In this document: positions 21,001-27,000 of the stretch, piece after piece | Layout: each line of letters starts with the position of its first letter | Numbering within the stretch: the first letter of the stretch is position 1 | UHGV virus genome: UHGV-0177318 | DNA length: 47,797 nucleotides | Reading direction: 5' to 3' (one strand) | DNA from: a virus | Position numbers: made by a program

Positions 21001-24000
21001 GGTACAGGGGATAAACGATGGAGCTTCAATTATGATGGTTCCGCCACTTCTCAGGGGGCCTGGGTTAATGGTTCTGACGAGCGTCACAAGTCCAATATAA
21101 AGCCGGTGTCGACCCCACTAGCCGCCGTACTATCCATGCGTGGTGTCACGTATGACGTTCAGGATGGTGGTCGGGGTGTAGGACTTATTGCCCAGGATGT
21201 TGAAAATTGGTGTCCGGATGCCGTTAAGACATATGGAGATCGTGAATTCAGTGATGGCACTGTGATTGAGAATTTCAAATTTCTCGACACATCAGGCGTG
21301 TCTGCCGCATACCACACCGAAGCAATCAAAGAACTTTTTACCCTGGTGGAACTGGTACTTATCGATCCGGAAAAAGCACGTGATGTAATCAACGTGGTTA
21401 AAGAAGCCACTAAGCCTAGCCAGTCAGGTTTGTAAACAATACTCAGGCATCTAACAAGTAAAACGCCGCCCATCGCATGCAAGAATTTGCGGCGGCTAAA
21501 ATCTGCTCATTAAGAGTTACTGCCATAAAATTTACAAAACTCATAATTCGAAACGACATAGAAACTTAGAAACGAAACGGCGAAGCTTTAAGCATTCATC
21601 ACAGACCCTCTGTCTTGCGTGCATACTCAAATGAAACTACTGTATATAAAAACAGTGTTTGAGGTATGCAACATGGAATTTATCAGGCCTGCAGAACTGC
21701 GAGAAATTATAGCTCTCCCGCTTTTCAGTGACTTAGTGCAGTGTGGTTTCCCAAGCCCAGCGGCTGATTACGTTGAACAGCGCATCGATCTCAATGAGTT
21801 ACTTGTTGCTCACCCGAGCTCAACGTATTTCGTCAAAGCCGCGGGCGATTCTATGATCGAAGCCGGGATCAGCGACGGTGATCTGCTGGTAGTGGACAGC
21901 TCCAGGACTGCTGAGCATGGTGACATTGTCATCGCTGCGGTGGAAGGGGAGTTCACTGTTAAACGCCTGCAGCTGCGCCCGAACGTGCAACTAAACCCTA
22001 TGAACAGCGCCTACAGTCCGATAGTTATTGGCTGCGAAGATACGCTGGACGTTTTCGGCGTCGTGACTTTCATCGTTAAATCGGCGAGCTGAACATGTTC
22101 GCGCTCTGTGATGTGAATTCGTTCTACGCATCATGCGAGACGGTGTTTCGGCCTGATTTGAGGGGGCGCCCGGTTGTCGTTCTCTCGAATAATGATGGCT
22201 GCGTAATTGCGCGCAGCGCCGAGGCCAAAGCCGCCGGAATTACCATGGGTGAGCCTTTCTTCAAGCAAAAGGAGCTTTTCCGGCGCGCTGGCGTTGTTTG
22301 CTTCAGCAGCAATTACGAGCTGTACGCTGATATGTCGAACCGGGTAATGACGACGCTGGAAGAAATGAGCCCTCGCGTCGAAATATATAGCATCGATGAA
22401 GCTTTTTGCGACCTTACTGGTGTTCGAAACTGCCGGGACCTGACAGAGTTTGGCAAAGAGATCCGCGCGACGGTTCTGAAGCGTACGCACCTGACTGTCG
22501 GGATTGGCATCGCGAAAAGTAAGACCCTTGCAAAGCTGGCAAATCACGCCGCCAAAAAATGGCAGCGTCAGACGGGCGGAGTTGTTGATTTGTCCAATAT
22601 CGATCGCCAGCGTCGGTTGTTGGCTATTGTGCCTGTGGAGGACGTATGGGGCGTCGGCAGGCGCATCAGTAAGAAGCTGAACGCCATGGGCATCAAAACG
22701 GCTCTGGACCTCTCAGAACAAAGCACATGGATTATCCGTAAACACTTTAACGTGGTACTCGAGCGAACGGTCCGGGAGTTGCGCGGCGAGCCTTGTCTTG
22801 ATCTGGAGGAGTTTGCACCAGCTAAGCAGGAAATCGTCTGCAGTCGGTCATTCGGTGAACGCGTTACCGAATACGAACAGATGCGGCAGGCTATTTGCAG
22901 CTATGCGGCGCGTGGTGCTGAAAAGCTTCGCGGCGAACATCAGTATTGCCGTTTTATCTCTGCGTTCGTGAAGACGTCACCTTTTGCCCTGAACGAGCCG
23001 TATTACGGCAACAGCGCGTCAGTGAAGCTTCTCACCCCCACTCAGGATTCCCGCGACATCATCAACGCCGCGGTAAAGTGCCTGGACAAAATCTGGAAGG
23101 ATGGGCACCGCTATCAAAAGGCTGGAATTATGCTGGGAGATTTTTTCAGTCAAGGGGTGGCACAGCTGAACCTTTTCGATGAGCACGCGCCGCGCGCTGG
23201 AAGCGATAAGTTGATGGATGTGCTCGATCACTTGAACGCGAAAGAAGGGAAAGGAACACTCTTCTTTGCCGGGCAGGGCATTCAACAGCAGTGGCAGATG
23301 AAGCGGCAGTTGCTTTCACCCCGATATACTACTCGCATATCAGATTTATTAATTGTGAAGTAAAAAGGCTGCTTAACGCAGCCTTTTTAGTTAATTAAGC
23401 AGCTTTTTTCTCGCTGCATTTGCAATGAGGGATAACAAAAACTTTCGCCTTTTTAGGGCGGATGATTTTACCATCCTTCATTACATAGGGCGTGAAGGTT
23501 ACTTCACACGAATTCCCACATTTTGGACAATAGCCAGTTTTCATGTGAGATCTCCTATGTAAATGTACAGCCTGTAAATCTAAACAGATTGCACCTTGTT
23601 AGGAGAACCACTATACTTTTAGCCGTCAAGCATTTTGTGTAGCGGTAGATTTCTCCATACACACCGAGTTATGCGTCAACATAGCTCGCCCCCTAAGAAG
23701 CCCTGCGTCAACAGGGCTTTTTTCAATAAAATTCAAAGCAAAGCTGTGCTGTTTGATAGCCCAATTTATCGAGCATCGTTTCTGCGAAAAGATCCGCCTG
23801 CCATTCAGAATCTTCATTTTGTTCCGGCATGGCATTCGCAAAGTGTAAGGCTGGCTTATGTTGTAGTAGCAAGTGCCCGAGCTCATGGAATATAACAAAT
23901 AACGCTGATCGTTCACCGCCACATGCCATTTCATAGATATGGTTTGGAACCCTGATAGTCAGTTTGTCAGGTTCACAGTGTCCAATCGTTAGACCCAGCG

Positions 24001-27000
24001 TTTCCTGAAACCATTCGTCATCATCCATTGGATCGAGGACAATATTCCATTGAGATAATGTTTCCAGCGCTACGTCAAATCTGCGCGGTCTACGCCGGTA
24101 TTTATACTTACTAGTAAATCCGAGTGCAAAGCAAGCATTTACAGCTATCGCTTTAATTTCCATTTCACTCAGAGGACGAACACGTGTACCGCGCATTAAA
24201 TGCATAACAGTTTCCTAAGCAGTTATTTTTTGTTGATTTCTGCAAGTAATTCTGCAAATTTTTTTAATTCTTCATGGGTGAATTCCGATTTTGCAAAACC
24301 AGCAACAAGCATTTGTTGTTGCTTTGGTAAACCTTCAATAGGTACCAATTCATTCGCGATAGAAGCTAAAACATCGAGATCATCAATGTAATAACCTTGC
24401 GCTGCAAAAAGTTCATTGATTGCCGTTACCCATTTCTCTGGTATTTTTTTAGTCCCTGTTTCGAGCCCGCTTAGAAAAGCAGGTGTTGTTCCTAAAGCCT
24501 TTGCCATTGTAAGCAAAGTATAACCAGTATCGATCCGAGCTTTCCTTACGGCCTTTCCGAAATCAGTAAGAGCCATAGTCATATCCTCAGTGCTTTCATT
24601 GTGGCTTACGCCAGATGTTCTAAATATACTCTAACCATAAAAAAAGTAAACTCATCAAGAAAAATAAATTAACCAAAAAGGTTAAGTTATTATTTCTATT
24701 AGATTTTTACCTTGATTTCTGGCGTTTCCAACCGCGCGTGTAACAGCGTGCCAGATAAACTTGTCGGCAGGCACTGCGCCGTCGGCTGCTATCTCTTCAG
24801 CTTCTTTCCCGCCTATATCCTGACGTATCCACTCGCGAGCCGCTTCCGGTGACAGAACCAGTGGCCGGCGATCGTGAATATCGACCAGACCTTTATCAGC
24901 TGCAGATGTCACGATGAGAAAACCTTCAGCTTCGTCTCCACGCTCAAATGGTGTGCTGCCGATAGCCGCCATAAATATTGGCTGGCCGTCGGCCCGGTGA
25001 ATGAAGTAGGGCTGTTTCTTGTCTGCTTCCTTCTTCCATTCGAACCAGCCATCCGCAAAGCAGATCGCCCGGCCATGTTGCCAGAGAGGCTTGAACATTC
25101 GGCTGGTGGCCGCCGTCTCGACGCGTGCGTTAATCAGTGGCGGTTTATCCCACCACTCGGGCGCGTAAGACCACAGGACTGGATCAAGATGCAGCTGCTC
25201 GTTGCGTTCGCTCAGGAGCAGCACCTTGGTACCGGGCGAGACGTTGTACCGGCCTATAGGTTCCGGGTCATACGCAATGTCACGATCGGCTTCATCGGCC
25301 AAGTATGCCAGATATTCTTCACGGGTTTGGGCTTGTGCAAAACGTCCACACACAGGAACCTCCAGTCAGTAAGACTGAAAGTATAGGGCAGGGAGAAAAA
25401 GTAGTGTGCGCTGGTTAAGTCCTACAAACGGATTCGCGCTGATTATGCTAATGAGGATGAAATGCGTAAAGCGATGCGTTGTGAAACTGGAAGGAGCTAC
25501 GCAAAGTTGCGACAATGCCAAAAGAGAAAGCTAAACCCGGTAGGGGATCCGGGTTCGCTGTGATGACAATATGGAAATTCATTCATTAGTAAGCCACATA
25601 TCAGACTCTTCAAACATATCCTCCAGCATACGGTTCAACTTTTCACGGTCACTTTTGCTGGCATCACTATTCAATCCGTTAGCCTGCATAGGTTTCACCT
25701 TCACTTCAGCATCAGGGAATATGCTATGCACTCGCCTCGTCAGCTCAGCCAAAATAATTTCTCTGGCGCCATCCAAGCCCTGGACATTTCGCTTATCGTA
25801 AACCAACTCAACAAACATAACAGTCTCCTTAATCTCTGTGAGAGGAAGCTATATTTTTACTGTAAATATATACAGTGTCAAGCGAGTGATACGATCTACA
25901 CGATGGGATTTTTCGTCCGGTTGAACAGAAATTACCGGTAGTTATTCCCCAGTTATTCCCCAATATTTCCCCGTAAGAAAACTACCAATAAAAAAACCAG
26001 CCATAAGAGGCTGGTTTTCAATGTATTTTTGGTCGGCACGAGAGGATTTGAACCTCCGACCCCCGACACCCCATGTCACTGCGTTAAAGCCGCTGCAACC
26101 CTTGTAAATACTGGTGCTACGGCATGTTTGACTGTATATGCAAACAGTGCATTTTTTGCAAAATCCGCACTATATACATCAATGAGTTACGGGTAGGTTT
26201 TTCCCCATACATCACCCGGCTTTAAAGACAATTTCAGCATGAGGAACTTCTACCCATTCCACATGGTTCTGGGTATAAACTTTTGTCGATTTTGCATCAC
26301 TATGGGCCATCCTTGCCTGCGGATCGATACCTTGTCTTTCGAAAATATGAGCCGCCAGCGCTCTAATCTCGTGGAAAGTTGGCCTTTCTTTGATAGGTAA
26401 TTCTGCCGCTACACCTATCCGGTCCCGCAGCTCTGAAAATGCCCTGCTCAAATAATCAGGGGCCACCTGTGTTGGGTGGTTAACTTCCTTGCTTATCGGA
26501 TTGCTTCTCTTTTCCAGAAGCCGGTGAATAACATAAGGACTGGCCACATTGTCTCTGCTGTTGTCGATGATCTCTTTCAGGGCCCTGCCGATCGGAATAG
26601 CGACGTGTGAAGCCTCTTTGTGCTGCACTTTTTGCCGATGAATGTAAAGCGTTCCGAATATGCCAGCCTCCTCCTGATCGAACCATACACAGCCGCAAAC
26701 CCCTTCTTGAGGTTCCTTGATCGAGTACCGGATCCGGGAAACTTCCAGGCGCGCTTGCGTAGTTTGTATGGCAAGGTCCATTGCAGTCTTCAGCCAAGGT
26801 TCAGCAGCTGCATGTATGGCCAGGAACTGTTCCAAAGTAAGTCGCCGGCGGACCTTTTTATCGACACGCCGCATTTTTTTCCGTGTTGCAGGGTTATCCA
26901 TCATTAGCGATTCATCAACAGCATAAGAGAATAGCTTTTTCAGGAAGCTAACTTTTCGGTTCTGAACATTGGCCGACGATTCAGAATGGTAATTTCGTAT

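What the first reader, a model, noticed from the sequence alone, without database searches (positions are those of the whole stretch)
21640..25875. SOS / DNA-damage-tolerance island in the region between the tail fibre and attP
The region corresponding to the lambda b-region carries umuD-umuC behind a LexA box, a dinI homologue behind a second LexA box, an SRAP (YedK-like) abasic-site peptidase, an HTH/ImmA pair and the SOS-boxed small Zn-ribbon ORF. Finding translesion synthesis, a RecA modulator and an SRAP together on a phage suggests the prophage reprograms host DNA-damage handling or mutagenesis during induction.
Basis: partly seen in the sequence, partly recalled or inferred. Interest (0 to 1): 0.6.

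Follow-up and report, generated by a model that had tools for sequence, protein, structure and literature searches.

The report
LexA-wired DNA-damage cargo on a prophage
A phi80-like temperate phage carries, between its tail-fibre gene and its attachment site, a common set of host-type DNA-damage genes (umuDC, an SRAP peptidase, dinI) under host LexA control, and the only unusual part is a small inserted three-gene cassette of unknown function.

Summary
Window 21638-25877 encodes intact UmuD/UmuC, a 49-aa Zn-ribbon protein (Zn49), an M78 ImmA-like peptidase, an XRE HTH protein, a YedK-type SRAP and a DinI-like protein. Near-consensus LexA boxes sit upstream of umuD and dinI. The box before Zn49 is weak and ambiguous.

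The cargo is not rare. More than 600 IMG/VR viral contigs matched UmuC patterns. Of the 80 closest, 58 also carry a convergent SRAP, and 86 of 87 umuD relatives keep the LexA box. Published phages (PHB10, Oslo, CobraSix, ST846-OXA48phi9.2) carry and mostly annotate these genes.

LexA wiring and gene integrity are shown. Any effect on mutagenesis or survival is inferred.

The new element is HTH-ImmA-Zn49. It is a 1.3-kb, low-GC cassette inserted exactly between the umuC and SRAP stop codons. It belongs to a three-gene module found in about 130 fetched loci: an XRE repressor, an M78 peptidase and a tiny basic protein with no named family. A conserved anti-Shine-Dalgarno leader precedes the small ORF. 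In about eight lineages the module lies convergent to umuDC.

Verdict: an ordinary new member of a known cargo type, plus one uncharacterised module worth testing.

The parts
21638..21657 (+). LexA box of umuDC (TACTGTATATAAAAACAGTG)
   Evidence: It has the strict CTGT-N8-ACAG core and scores 25.5 on the heuristic matrix. A box is present within 150 nt upstream of umuD in 86 of 87 relatives. It is 19/20 identical to the E. coli umuDC operator as I recall it (own knowledge).
21673..22092 (+). umuD (139 aa)
   Evidence: Peptidase_S24, E 1.1e-29; NF007621, 160.8 bits against a cut-off of 110. The Cys24-Gly25 site (LVQCGFP), Ser60 (GDSM) and Lys97 (TVKRL) are read directly from the translation.
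22095..23363 (+). umuC (422 aa), Y-family polymerase
   Evidence: NF002955, 861 bits, full length 1-422; IMS, IMS_C, IMS_HHH and DUF4113 domains. D6, D101-E102 (SIDEAF) and the clamp motif QLNLF are visible in the translation. No terminator-like site on the + strand lies between the tail fibre gene and umuD.
23364..24681 (-). Inserted HTH-ImmA-Zn49 cassette (1318 bp, GC about 41%)
   Evidence: In 'empty' relatives (L150, L152) the umuC and SRAP stop codons abut, and the window's flanks align to them. GC over 23395-24681 is 40.7%, against 53-54% for umuC and SRAP. A 15-nt inverted repeat lies at its ends, 23382-23396 and 24667-24681.
23395..23544 (-). Zn49: 49-aa basic Zn-ribbon protein, the third gene of the module
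23545..23722 (-). Conserved 178-nt spacer or leader. It contains two hairpins with TTGACG loops (the first terminator-like), the anti-SD motif GGTTCTCC, the CTGT-N8-ACAG palindrome at 23572-23587 with a second box one mismatch off, and the SD AGGAG.
   Evidence: The four-sequence alignment A3 (window, Klebsiella, Atlantibacter, Pantoea) has 86% mean column identity, while synonymous sites of the ORF have dS of 0.8 or more. RNAalifold pairs TCTCCTA with TAGGAGA. The MFE is -62.8 kcal/mol, z = -3.56. Cognate anti-SD:SD duplexes average -10.0 kcal/mol, against -5.0 for shuffled sequences. The LexA matrix score is only 12.9.
23723..24205 (-). ImmA-like M78 Zn-metallopeptidase (160 aa, peptidase domain only)
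   Evidence: Peptidase_M78, E 1.3e-6, above the cut-off. phrog_87 metallo-protease, E 1.9e-12. Weak PADLOC hit to capP. HELGH and the downstream E-x-x-A-D-x-F-A are read from the translation.
24223..24582 (-). XRE-family HTH protein (119 aa), probable repressor and substrate of the peptidase
   Evidence: HTH_31, HTH_3 and HTH_19 hits over residues 8-62, all below the Pfam cut-offs. Weak PADLOC hits to capH and HTH_VI. The gene is always directly upstream of the peptidase gene in about 130 loci.
24623..24687 (-). Promoter-like site of the HTH-ImmA operon (TTTACT-16-TATATT, 24650-24623) and the upstream palindrome TTAACC-N5-GGTTAA (24671-24687), a candidate operator
   Evidence: The promoter scan finds the site. 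GTTTAC and the palindrome are conserved across diverged relatives, including ones that lack SRAP upstream.
24682..25353 (-). SRAP (YedK-type abasic-site peptidase, 223 aa)
   Evidence: Pfam SRAP, E 7.4e-50; NF007413, 462 bits. It matches solved E. coli YedK structures at 440 bits over residues 1-221, and Cys2, Asn75, Glu105 and His160 are conserved in that alignment. It has no LexA box. A promoter-like site lies at 25470-25442.
25533..25556 (-). Terminator-like hairpin after dinI
   Evidence: Found by the terminator scan.
25579..25818 (-). dinI-like gene (79 aa)
   Evidence: Pfam DinI, 77 bits against a cut-off of 24.2. phrog_189, RecA filament binding protein DinI. It scores only 38 bits against a cut-off of 111 on the E. 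coli DinI equivalog model, and 31 bits against PDB 1GHH.
25853..25881 (-). dinI promoter (TTGACA-17-AAAAAT) with the LexA box 25858-25877 in its spacer
   Evidence: The promoter scan scores it 10/12. The box scores 26.0. In relatives the box starts 55-57 nt upstream of the start codon in most; the arms are fixed and the centre varies (14 of 18).
26030..26075 (-). attP core: the 3' 46 nt of tRNA-Pro(GGG). The tRNA terminator follows at 25992-26019.
   Evidence: The alignment with attL of the Enterobacter wuhouensis prophage places it here, and ARAGORN finds tRNA-Pro there. The terminator scan finds the hairpin. The window itself has no complete tRNA.

Best explanation
This is an accessory ('moron') cluster at the attachment-site end of a phi80-like lambdoid prophage that integrates into tRNA-Pro(GGG). 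It has two layers.

Layer 1 is a widespread cargo taken from enterobacterial chromosomes: umuDC, a convergent YedK-type SRAP, and a dinI-like gene.
- In the lysogen, host LexA sits on near-consensus operators at the umuD and dinI promoters. The boxes are shown; binding is inferred.
- DNA damage activates RecA, LexA cleaves itself, and umuDC and dinI are transcribed. The phage CI (HTH plus S24 domains) should be cleaved at the same time.
- UmuD keeps its cleavage site and catalytic dyad, and UmuC keeps its catalytic residues. A second Pol V can therefore form and bypass lesions on host and phage DNA (inferred).
- umuDC is also co-oriented with the late operon, with no terminator after the tail-fibre gene. 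Q-antiterminated late transcription probably reads into it (inferred).
- The DinI-like protein would modulate RecA filaments (inferred).
- SRAP has its own promoter-like site and no LexA box, and keeps Cys2, Glu105 and His160. It would crosslink to abasic sites in single-stranded DNA (inferred from the YedK structures).

Layer 2 is a 1.3-kb low-GC cassette inserted between the umuC and SRAP stop codons. It has an XRE repressor, an M78 peptidase and a 49-aa basic Zn-ribbon protein.
- It most likely works like ImmR/ImmA, DdrO/IrrE or CapH/CapP: a damage-activated peptidase cleaves the repressor.
- The small protein is most likely the gated output. Its ribosome-binding site is sequestered by a conserved anti-SD leader. 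In Enterobacterales the leader also carries a LexA-like double palindrome.
- What the small protein acts on is unknown.
For: - Gene identities and integrity.
- LexA boxes: 5 observed against 0.53 expected. Matrix scores are 25.5 and 26.0. They are conserved in 86 of 87 umuD and 14 of 18 dinI relatives, with fixed arms and variable centres. The dinI box lies inside a 10/12 sigma-70 promoter.
- Prophage setting: the structural half is about 91% identical to phi80. CI has HTH_3 and S24 domains, and Q is present. attL lies at tRNA-Pro in Enterobacter wuhouensis.
- The cargo is common: more than 600 UmuC-matching stretches in IMG/VR. Of the top 80, 58 carry a convergent SRAP and 11 carry DinI. Published phages carry these genes and mostly annotate them.
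- The cassette is an insertion: empty-site alignment and GC 40.7% against 53%.
- The module is conserved: 111 of 116 profile hits among 20,265 ORFs lie directly downstream of the peptidase gene on the same strand. The spacer is a constant 130-200 nt.
- The small ORF is under purifying selection. The small-protein family has 373 clusters at 90% identity and 301 at 50% identity, none with a name.
- Anti-SD leader.
- Recurring adjacency: 13 of 127 triad loci have umuC or umuD convergent within 2.5 kb. These fall into about 8 ImmA identity classes from 32% to 100%.
- Mechanistic precedent for HTH plus M78 switches: 10.1101/2022.04.27.489752.
Against: - There are no expression, binding or phenotype data.
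- Enterobacterales chromosomes generally carry their own umuDC and yedK. For E. coli, every one of 5,426 genomes matched the query. The phage copies may be redundant.
- The DinI-like protein is far from E. coli DinI (38 bits against a cut-off of 111).
- SRAP and HTH-ImmA lack LexA boxes.
- The Zn49 palindrome scores below known operators. In Pantoea it changes to CCGT..ACGG with compensation, which fits an RNA or DNA hairpin as well as a LexA site.
- No credible sigma-70 promoter was found for the small ORF.
- No operator is shared between the HTH promoter and the small-ORF leader.
- The peptidase lacks the GAF domain of IrrE and CapP.
- Only 2 of the 80 closest umuDC prophages carry the cassette. 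It is therefore dispensable for the umuDC/SRAP cargo.
Confidence: 0.7

Rival explanations
1. The cluster is passive, hitch-hiking chromosomal DNA picked up by imprecise excision or recombination. It gives no adaptive benefit to phage or lysogen and merely duplicates host umuDC and yedK.
For: SRAP matches E. coli YedK at 440 bits over its full length. UmuC is a full-length match to the chromosomal-type model. Every one of 5,426 E. coli genomes matched the query, mostly at 80-90% identity, most likely through their own umuDC and/or yedK. The content between umuC and SRAP varies widely among relatives.
Against: The ORFs are intact and LexA boxes are retained in 86 of 87 umuD relatives. The same umuDC-convergent-SRAP arrangement sits at the prophage end in most of the 80 closest viral contigs, out of more than 600 matches. 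It also appears in isolated, sequenced phages of four genera. Such persistence is not expected for neutral DNA under a phage packaging limit.
Confidence: 0.12
2. The HTH-ImmA-Zn49 cassette is an autonomous selfish or defensive module, either toxin-antitoxin-like or a CapH/CapP-type regulator with a minimal toxic effector for abortive infection or superinfection exclusion. On this view it landed next to umuDC only because both favour the same permissive slot near the attachment site.
For: It is a discrete low-GC insertion. It is present in only 2 of the 80 closest umuDC prophages. About 110 of 127 triad loci have no umuDC, SRAP or dinI nearby. In Serratia prophages the small ORF follows a Gp49(HigB)-HTH pair instead. 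PADLOC gives weak hits to capP, capH, RmrA and Lit. Tight translational gating is typical of toxic small proteins. XRE plus COG2856 pairs are listed as TA-like (PMC2701414, seen).
Against: Convergent adjacency to umuC or umuD recurs in about 8 diverged lineages, with different umuDC alleles. Three lineages show the order SRAP-HTH-ImmA-small ORF. This is far above the rate of umuC in phage records, 30 of 50,697. The small protein is basic and soluble-looking, unlike the hydrophobic peptides of type I toxins.
Confidence: 0.3
3. Zn49 is a small antirepressor or induction factor for the prophage itself, analogous to the TF-smORF modules of Silpe et al. 2023 or to the LexA-controlled antirepressors of Gifsy and 186-type phages. 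The cassette would then be a second, damage-linked route to induction.
For: The module occurs mainly in prophages and near integrases. A precedent exists for a transcription factor plus a small protein that inactivates cI in SOS-inducible phages (PMC10432266). A LexA-like double palindrome precedes Zn49 in several enterobacterial variants. In L084 both boxes are strict, and the better one scores 17.0.
Against: The window's CI already has an S24 autocleavage domain. The same module also occurs in chromosomal contexts that do not look like prophages, for example next to hrpA and gidB/parA. The small proteins are conserved across hosts, whereas their presumed CI targets would not be. The orientation and the M78 peptidase differ from the published modules.
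Confidence: 0.15

Closest known systems
Prophage- and phage-borne umuDC with SRAP. Examples: Escherichia phage PHB10 (MK524177), Klebsiella phage ST846-OXA48phi9.2 (MK416022), Salmonella phage vB_SosS_Oslo (NC_018279), Enterobacter phage CobraSix (NC_071003).
   Same: umuD-umuC sits directly after the tail-fibre gene and before the attachment site and integrase. UmuC is 83-95% identical. PHB10 also has SRAP next to int. The Klebsiella phage has the same umuDC-Zn49-ImmA-HTH-SRAP order at 82% nucleotide identity.
   Different: None of these records includes the dinI-like gene at the end. Only the Klebsiella record has the cassette, and its record stops inside SRAP. I found no functional study of any of them in the searched literature.
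E. coli chromosomal SOS genes umuDC, dinI and yedK
   Same: The umuD operator is almost identical to the E. coli one as I recall it (own knowledge). The UmuD and UmuC catalytic and cleavage residues are the same. SRAP matches solved YedK structures at 440 bits and keeps Cys2, Asn75, Glu105 and His160.
   Different: Here the genes are clustered on a mobile element, not dispersed. The DinI-like protein is only distantly related to E. coli DinI.
SRAP-UmuDC gene neighbourhoods and phage SRAP (Aravind, Anand and Iyer 2013, PMC3765255)
   Same: That paper reports SRAP next to UmuC-UmuD, SRAP in temperate phages and prophages, and a DUF955 (M78) metallopeptidase linked to translesion-polymerase operons.
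   Different: The passages I read describe neither the three-gene XRE-M78-small-protein module nor its leader.
ImmR/ImmA (ICEBs1, phi105), DdrO/IrrE (Deinococcus) and CapH/CapP (CBASS regulators)
   Same: An XRE HTH protein of about 100-130 aa is encoded next to an HExxH M78 peptidase, and the pair is associated with DNA-damage responses. Like ImmA, the peptidase here is about 160 aa with no GAF domain.
   Different: Sequence similarity is marginal: PADLOC capP E 1.2e-4 and no PDB hit at E below 1. In CapH/CapP systems the regulated operon is divergent. Here a small ORF follows on the same strand after a conserved 130-200-nt spacer. Cleavage and its trigger are untested.
TF-smORF induction modules of linear plasmid-like phages (Silpe et al. 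2023, PMC10432266)
   Same: A phage-encoded transcription factor is paired with an unannotated small protein of about 50 aa with no known domains.
   Different: In those modules the smORF is divergently transcribed, is activated by the transcription factor, has no peptidase partner and lacks homologues. The small protein here belongs to a family of at least 300 clusters and also occurs outside prophages.
PHROG families phrog_33859 and phrog_21154 (unknown function)
   Same: These families hold the non-Zn relatives of Zn49 found in the same genomic slot.
   Different: Zn49 itself matches no PHROG. It is linked only by profile-profile comparison and by genomic position.

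Membership tests
Pol V (UmuD'2C) | UmuD: S24 fold with a Cys/Ala-Gly cleavage site and a Ser/Lys dyad | tested here: met
   Peptidase_S24, E 1.1e-29; NF007621, 160.8 bits, above the cut-off of 110. QCG, GDSM and TVKRL are present in the translation.
Pol V (UmuD'2C) | UmuC: full-length Y-family polymerase with catalytic acidic residues, a clamp-binding motif and the UmuC C-terminal domain | tested here: met
   NF002955, 861 bits against a cut-off of 431, covering 1-422; IMS, IMS_C and DUF4113 domains. D6, D101-E102 and QLNLF are read.
Pol V (UmuD'2C) | RecA-dependent UmuD cleavage and translesion synthesis activity | not testable with these tools
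   This needs biochemistry or mutagenesis assays.
LexA (SOS) regulon | A CTGT-N8-ACAG operator overlapping the promoter, conserved in orthologous loci | tested here: met
   Applies to umuD and dinI. Matrix scores are 25.5 and 26.0. The boxes are conserved in 86 of 87 and 14 of 18 relatives. The dinI box lies inside a TTGACA-17-AAAAAT promoter.
LexA (SOS) regulon | The same operator criterion applied to Zn49 | tested here: inconclusive
   The core is strict, but the score is 12.9, below the weakest training site. The CTGT/ACAG arms are kept in several diverged variants, and L084 has a second strict box scoring 17.0. Pantoea has the compensated CCGT..ACGG, scoring 1.9, and the palindrome is a predicted RNA hairpin.
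LexA (SOS) regulon | The same operator criterion applied to SRAP and the HTH-ImmA operon | tested here: not met
   No site scoring 10 or more lies upstream of either gene. A strict box is found upstream in only 2 of 49 SRAP and 3 of 129 HTH relatives.
LexA (SOS) regulon | LexA binding and damage-inducible transcription | not testable with these tools
   This needs EMSA or ChIP and RNA-seq.
SRAP / YedK | SRAP fold with N-terminal catalytic Cys2 plus Asn75, Glu105 and His160 | tested here: met
   Pfam SRAP, E 7.4e-50; NF007413, 462 bits against a cut-off of 349. The residue-by-residue alignment to a solved YedK structure (6KCQ) shows all four residues.
DinI | DinI fold or family membership | tested here: met
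   Pfam DinI, 77 bits against a cut-off of 24.2; phrog_189.
DinI | Equivalence to E. coli DinI (NCBIfam equivalog NF007893) | tested here: not met
   38.1 bits against a cut-off of 111, and 31 bits against 1GHH. It is a DinI-like protein, and its function may differ.
ImmR/ImmA - DdrO/IrrE - CapH/CapP switches | An adjacent XRE HTH gene and an M78 HExxH peptidase gene | tested here: met
   Peptidase_M78 is above its cut-off. The HTH_31 and HTH_3 hits are below cut-off but cover residues 8-62. The genes are 17 nt apart on the same strand. The pairing is conserved in about 130 loci.
ImmR/ImmA - DdrO/IrrE - CapH/CapP switches | Significant sequence relationship to a characterised member | tested here: inconclusive
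   Only weak PADLOC hits were found: capP E 1.2e-4 and capH E 2.2e-4. No PDB sequence hit was found at E up to 1.
ImmR/ImmA - DdrO/IrrE - CapH/CapP switches | Damage-stimulated cleavage of the repressor by the peptidase | not testable with these tools
   This needs in vitro or in vivo cleavage assays.
XRE-M78-small-protein triad (defined here) | A small basic ORF (35-60 aa) on the same strand, 130-200 nt after the peptidase gene, matching the small-protein profile | tested here: met
   The window's Zn49 starts 178 nt after the immA stop. 111 of 116 profile hits occupy this position. hhalign links Zn49 to group A and group A to group B.

The most novel reading that the evidence does not exclude
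The XRE repressor, M78 peptidase and tiny basic protein form a previously undescribed, widely distributed three-gene DNA-damage module.
- The small protein (a Zn-ribbon in Enterobacterales, Zn-free elsewhere) would be the effector.
- A conserved anti-Shine-Dalgarno leader gates it at translation. In enterics LexA may gate it as well.
- The module repeatedly lies convergent to umuDC and next to SRAP. This would reflect a direct role in controlling translesion synthesis, RecA or UmuD processing, or the choice between lysogen survival and prophage induction.
Probability: 0.25. Interest if true: 0.65.

Novelty: new member of a known kind. Interest (0 to 1): 0.35.

Why it matters
As found, the island shows that SOS-regulated error-prone polymerase genes, a RecA modulator and an abasic-site shield travel together on very common enterobacterial prophages. 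Lysogeny could therefore raise the copy number of damage-tolerance and mutagenesis genes in Enterobacter, Klebsiella, Salmonella and E. coli. That bears on stress-induced mutagenesis and on the evolution of antibiotic resistance. However, the cargo is already annotated in many records, and the SRAP-umuDC link has been published.

The part that could repay work is the inserted three-gene cassette. It is a compact, easily cloned module with about 300 families of unnamed small proteins and a conserved translational leader, and it recurs next to Pol V genes. If the small protein proves to regulate translesion synthesis, RecA or induction, it would add a new component to bacterial damage signalling.

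Tried and rejected
- **Rfam.** The island was scanned at E up to 1 and nine related loci at gathering score. No family covers the immA-Zn49 spacer. The only hits were sub-threshold terminator-like matches, tRNAs and unrelated hammerhead ribozymes.
- **Shared operator.** I looked for one between the HTH promoter and the small-ORF leader in 36 loci. Nothing beyond chance 8-10-mers appeared.
- **Sigma-70 promoter for the small ORF.** No convincing site exists in the window or in 37 loci. A TTGACG-8-TATAGT pair is conserved, but its spacing is wrong for sigma-70. I also considered sigma-54 and ECF-type readings by eye and dropped them because the spacing does not fit.
- **Domain searches for Zn49 and its relatives.** Pfam, NCBIfam and PADLOC gave no family. 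There was only a sub-threshold treble-clef Zn-finger hit.
- **LexA boxes before the small ORF in distant triads.** They are absent outside Enterobacterales. LexA control is therefore not a general property of the module.
- **TTGACG/CGCCAA hairpin loops.** I considered whether they form a specific protein or RNA recognition element. The loops occur in either orientation, and the raw motif count is not clearly above chance, so I leave this as an unexplained observation.
- **EppR.** I checked whether the Acinetobacter umuDC repressor is related to the HTH protein. It is TetR-like, so it is not.
- **Literature.** Searches for functional work on enterobacterial prophage umuDC found only plasmid, ICE and Acinetobacter cases.

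Full report
**1. What the window is**

The window is a complete lambdoid phage genome in lambda order.
- Terminase, head and tail genes run to 21435.
- An accessory region and the integrase (26212-27405, minus strand) follow.
- Then come a CI repressor with HTH_3 and Peptidase_S24 domains (33391-34017), a Q antiterminator (40700-41413) and the lysis genes.
- The structural half is about 91% identical to phi80.

A near-identical element is integrated in Enterobacter wuhouensis. There the ImmA protein is 100% identical. Identity with the window begins inside tRNA-Pro(GGG), so window 26030-26075 is the attP core, the 3' 46 nt of that tRNA. In the lysogen, dinI is the first phage gene after the tRNA. 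The finding therefore does lie in the region equivalent to the lambda b-region.

**2. The observation**

- UmuD exceeds the NCBIfam cut-off (160.8 bits against 110). It keeps the Cys24-Gly25 cleavage site and the Ser60/Lys97 dyad.
- UmuC is a full-length match (861 bits against 431). It keeps D6, D101-E102 and the QLNLF clamp motif.
- The SRAP aligns over its whole length to solved E. coli YedK structures (440 bits). Cys2, Asn75, Glu105 and His160 are conserved.
- The DinI-like protein is a clear Pfam DinI member but falls short of the E. coli DinI equivalog model (38 bits against 111).
- The peptidase has the M78 HELGH motif.
- The HTH protein has an XRE-type helix-turn-helix at residues 8-62.

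CTGT-N8-ACAG occurs five times in the window, against 0.53 expected by chance; none of 100 shuffles reached five. I scored the sites with a heuristic matrix built from E. coli LexA sites recalled from memory. Its scores are a guide and not a calibrated measure.

| Site | Score |
|---|---|
| umuD | 25.5 |
| dinI | 26.0 |
| Site between int and attP | 19.6 |
| Site in a methyltransferase gene | 24.6 |
| Zn49 | 12.9 |

The weakest training site scores 13.6, so the Zn49 site falls below it.

The dinI box lies in the spacer of a TTGACA-17-AAAAAT promoter. Conservation supports function. A strict box lies within 150 nt upstream of 86 of 87 umuD relatives and 14 of 18 dinI relatives. In the dinI relatives it usually starts 55-57 nt upstream of the start codon, with fixed arms and variable centres. 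By contrast, only 2 of 49 SRAP and 3 of 129 HTH relatives have one. The island is therefore only partly SOS-wired.

**3. How common the cargo is**

Megablast against phage records found four relevant phages.
- Klebsiella phage ST846-OXA48phi9.2 has the same umuDC-Zn49-ImmA-HTH-SRAP order at 82% identity.
- Escherichia phage PHB10 has umuDC followed by SRAP and int.
- Salmonella phage Oslo and Enterobacter phage CobraSix have umuDC next to int.

In the curated phage collection, UmuC occurs in 30 and SRAP in 17 of 50,697 records. IMG/VR gives a different picture. The 80 best are 94-97% identical and usually lie within a few kb of a contig end. Of these 80:
- 58 also carry a convergent SRAP, although the median downstream DNA available was only 2.1 kb;
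- 11 carry the DinI-like gene;
- 2 carry the cassette.

E. coli prophages show the same tail fibre-umuDC-SRAP order. The link between SRAP and UmuDC, and the presence of SRAP in temperate phages, were published in 2013 (PMC3765255). I found no functional study of the enterobacterial prophage copies.

**4. The inserted cassette**

In relatives such as L150 and L152, the umuC and SRAP stop codons abut. The window's two flanks align to that empty site. The intervening 23364-24681 has about 41% GC, against 53-54% for umuC and SRAP. A 15-nt imperfect inverted repeat lies at its ends. The cassette is therefore a discrete, later insertion into the common cargo.

**5. The cassette belongs to a conserved three-gene module**

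I searched with the peptidase and recovered 53 genomic and 75 viral loci from Gamma- and Betaproteobacteria and beyond.
- The HTH gene is always directly upstream.
- Almost every locus has a small basic ORF of 35-60 aa on the same strand after a spacer of 130-200 nt.
- A profile of these ORFs hit 116 of 20,265 ORFs in all loci. Of those, 111 were in exactly that position.
- Profile-profile comparison links the enterobacterial Zn-ribbon form to a Zn-free group (93% probability, E 2.5e-7), and that group to the largest group (96%, E 2.2e-9). The direct comparison of the Zn-ribbon form with the largest group is not significant.
- The family has 373 clusters at 90% identity and 301 at 50% identity. 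All are 'hypothetical', with no Pfam domain.
- The two Zn-free forms are phrog_33859 and phrog_21154, both of unknown function.

Zn49 is a real gene.
- dN/dS is 0.06-0.15 for the close pairs.
- Its length is constant at 47-49 aa.
- Cys6, 9, 13 and 41 are invariant in 11 variants.
- The AF2 model is all-beta with pLDDT 79. It has no significant structural match.

**6. The spacer is functional**

The four-sequence alignment of the spacer (window, Klebsiella, Atlantibacter, Pantoea) has 86% mean column identity. Synonymous sites in the adjacent ORF have dS of 0.8 or more. The spacer holds these elements:
- a terminator-like hairpin after immA;
- a second hairpin with the same TTGACG loop;
- a conserved TATAG-N-GGTTCTCC block;
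- the palindrome, followed by the Shine-Dalgarno sequence.

RNAalifold pairs TCTCCTA with TAGGAGA. The window leader folds at -62.8 kcal/mol, z = -3.56. In 12 variants the cognate anti-SD:SD duplexes average -10.0 kcal/mol, against -8.1 for non-cognate pairs and -5.0 for shuffled sequences. L085 and L130 show shifted but maintained pairing. Across 34 diverse loci the SD is paired with probability 0.73, against 0.64 with a shuffled upstream region. Many loci have a short CTCCT-N3-8-AGGAG hairpin. I found no good sigma-70 promoter and no Rfam family.

The CTGT-N8-ACAG palindrome could be a weak LexA operator.
- Its arms are fixed in several diverged variants.
- A second box follows one nucleotide later, and that box is strict in L084, scoring 17.0.

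It could equally be simply a hairpin. Pantoea has the compensated CCGT..ACGG, scoring 1.9. I leave the question open.

**7. Link between the module and Pol V**

Of 127 triad loci, 13 have umuC or a umuD-like gene convergent within 2.5 kb of the peptidase gene. These fall into about eight ImmA identity classes (100, 96, 88, 83, about 60, 36, 34 and 32%) and involve different umuDC alleles. Three lineages show the order SRAP-HTH-ImmA-small ORF. This is far above the frequency of umuC in phages. Part of the excess may reflect a shared preference for the slot near the attachment site. Most triads have no such neighbour. In Serratia prophages the small ORF follows a Gp49-HTH pair instead.

**8. Mechanism**

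Shown:
- the genes are intact;
- the operators exist and are conserved;
- the element is a prophage integrated at tRNA-Pro;
- the cassette is an insertion;
- the module and its leader are conserved.

Inferred from established knowledge of LexA/RecA, Pol V, DinI and YedK:
- Damage removes LexA, and umuDC and dinI are expressed together with CI cleavage.
- Pol V bypasses lesions.
- DinI tunes RecA filaments.
- SRAP shields abasic sites.

Inferred from orientation: umuDC lies on the late-operon strand with no terminator after the tail-fibre gene, so Q-modified transcription probably reads into it. The minus-strand genes depend on their own promoters and would be opposed by late transcription.

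Inferred by analogy with ImmR/ImmA, DdrO/IrrE and CapH/CapP (10.1101/2022.04.27.489752): the peptidase cleaves the HTH repressor on a damage signal. A conserved TTAACC-N5-GGTTAA palindrome by the HTH promoter is a candidate operator. What Zn49 acts on is unknown.

**9. Verdict**

The island is an ordinary new member of a common and already annotated prophage cargo. The one component that is not described in the literature I could search is the XRE-M78-small-protein module with its translational leader. It deserves a modest experimental follow-up.

Noticed in passing
window 41962-41981 (inside ORF 41954-43006): A near-consensus LexA box (TACTGTAAATATAAACAGTG, matrix score 24.6) lies within codons 3-9 of a DNA N6/N4 methyltransferase gene. 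That gene sits downstream of Q and a tR'-like terminator. This suggests an SOS-controlled phage methylase, or a LexA roadblock in the late region.
   Followed up: partly
window 26130-26149: A LexA box (GACTGTATATGCAAACAGTG, score 19.6) lies between the int stop codon and the attP core. On the minus strand it overlaps TTGCAA-17-TATACA, which reads toward the tRNA fragment. The identical 16-nt core is present in an E. coli CX21 prophage (L057:2646). No ORF is annotated there.
   Followed up: partly
window 23672-23722; L005:8483-8540: The two hairpins after immA both have the loop TTGACG in the window, Klebsiella and Pantoea. Both are reverse-complemented (CGTCAA) in Atlantibacter, while the stems are kept. 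Distant loci have CGCCAA or TTGGCG in the equivalent hairpin. The loops look conserved but insensitive to orientation, and I cannot explain this.
   Followed up: partly
window 23382-23396 and 24667-24681: A 15-nt inverted repeat, 93% complementary, lies at the two ends of the inserted cassette. The right copy is part of the conserved TTAACC-N5-GGTTAA palindrome upstream of the HTH promoter.
   Followed up: partly
L010:5531-5595 and L022:5647-5714: Type II hammerhead ribozymes (76 and 70 bits against a gathering score of 37) lie about 2 kb upstream of the triad in Aquitalea and Rheinheimera loci.
   Followed up: no
L063-L066 (Serratia marcescens prophages), gene at 6001-6150: A member of the small-protein family follows a Gp49(HigB-like)-HTH pair, not an HTH-M78 pair, and lies convergent to the integrase. 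The small ORF can therefore partner a different two-gene module.
   Followed up: no
NC_010393.1 (phage Gifsy-2) 43494-44027: An unannotated SRAP-like reading frame (89% identity over 80% of the window's SRAP) lies near the Gifsy-2 end, next to a stretch similar to the window's attP region.
   Followed up: no
L014:8948-9061, L015:8921-9052, and many loci: A third type of small ORF, with the motif RFRFGRWEDV..H.RS.P (phrog_21154), occupies the same slot after the peptidase. Two Pseudomonas loci carry two different small ORFs in tandem, and L053 has a tandem duplicate.
   Followed up: partly
L015:10834 and L096:576: In a Pseudomonas locus and in one unassigned viral locus, SRAP is divergent from umuDC, with a strict LexA box in the shared intergenic region. 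This differs from the window, where SRAP has no box.
   Followed up: no
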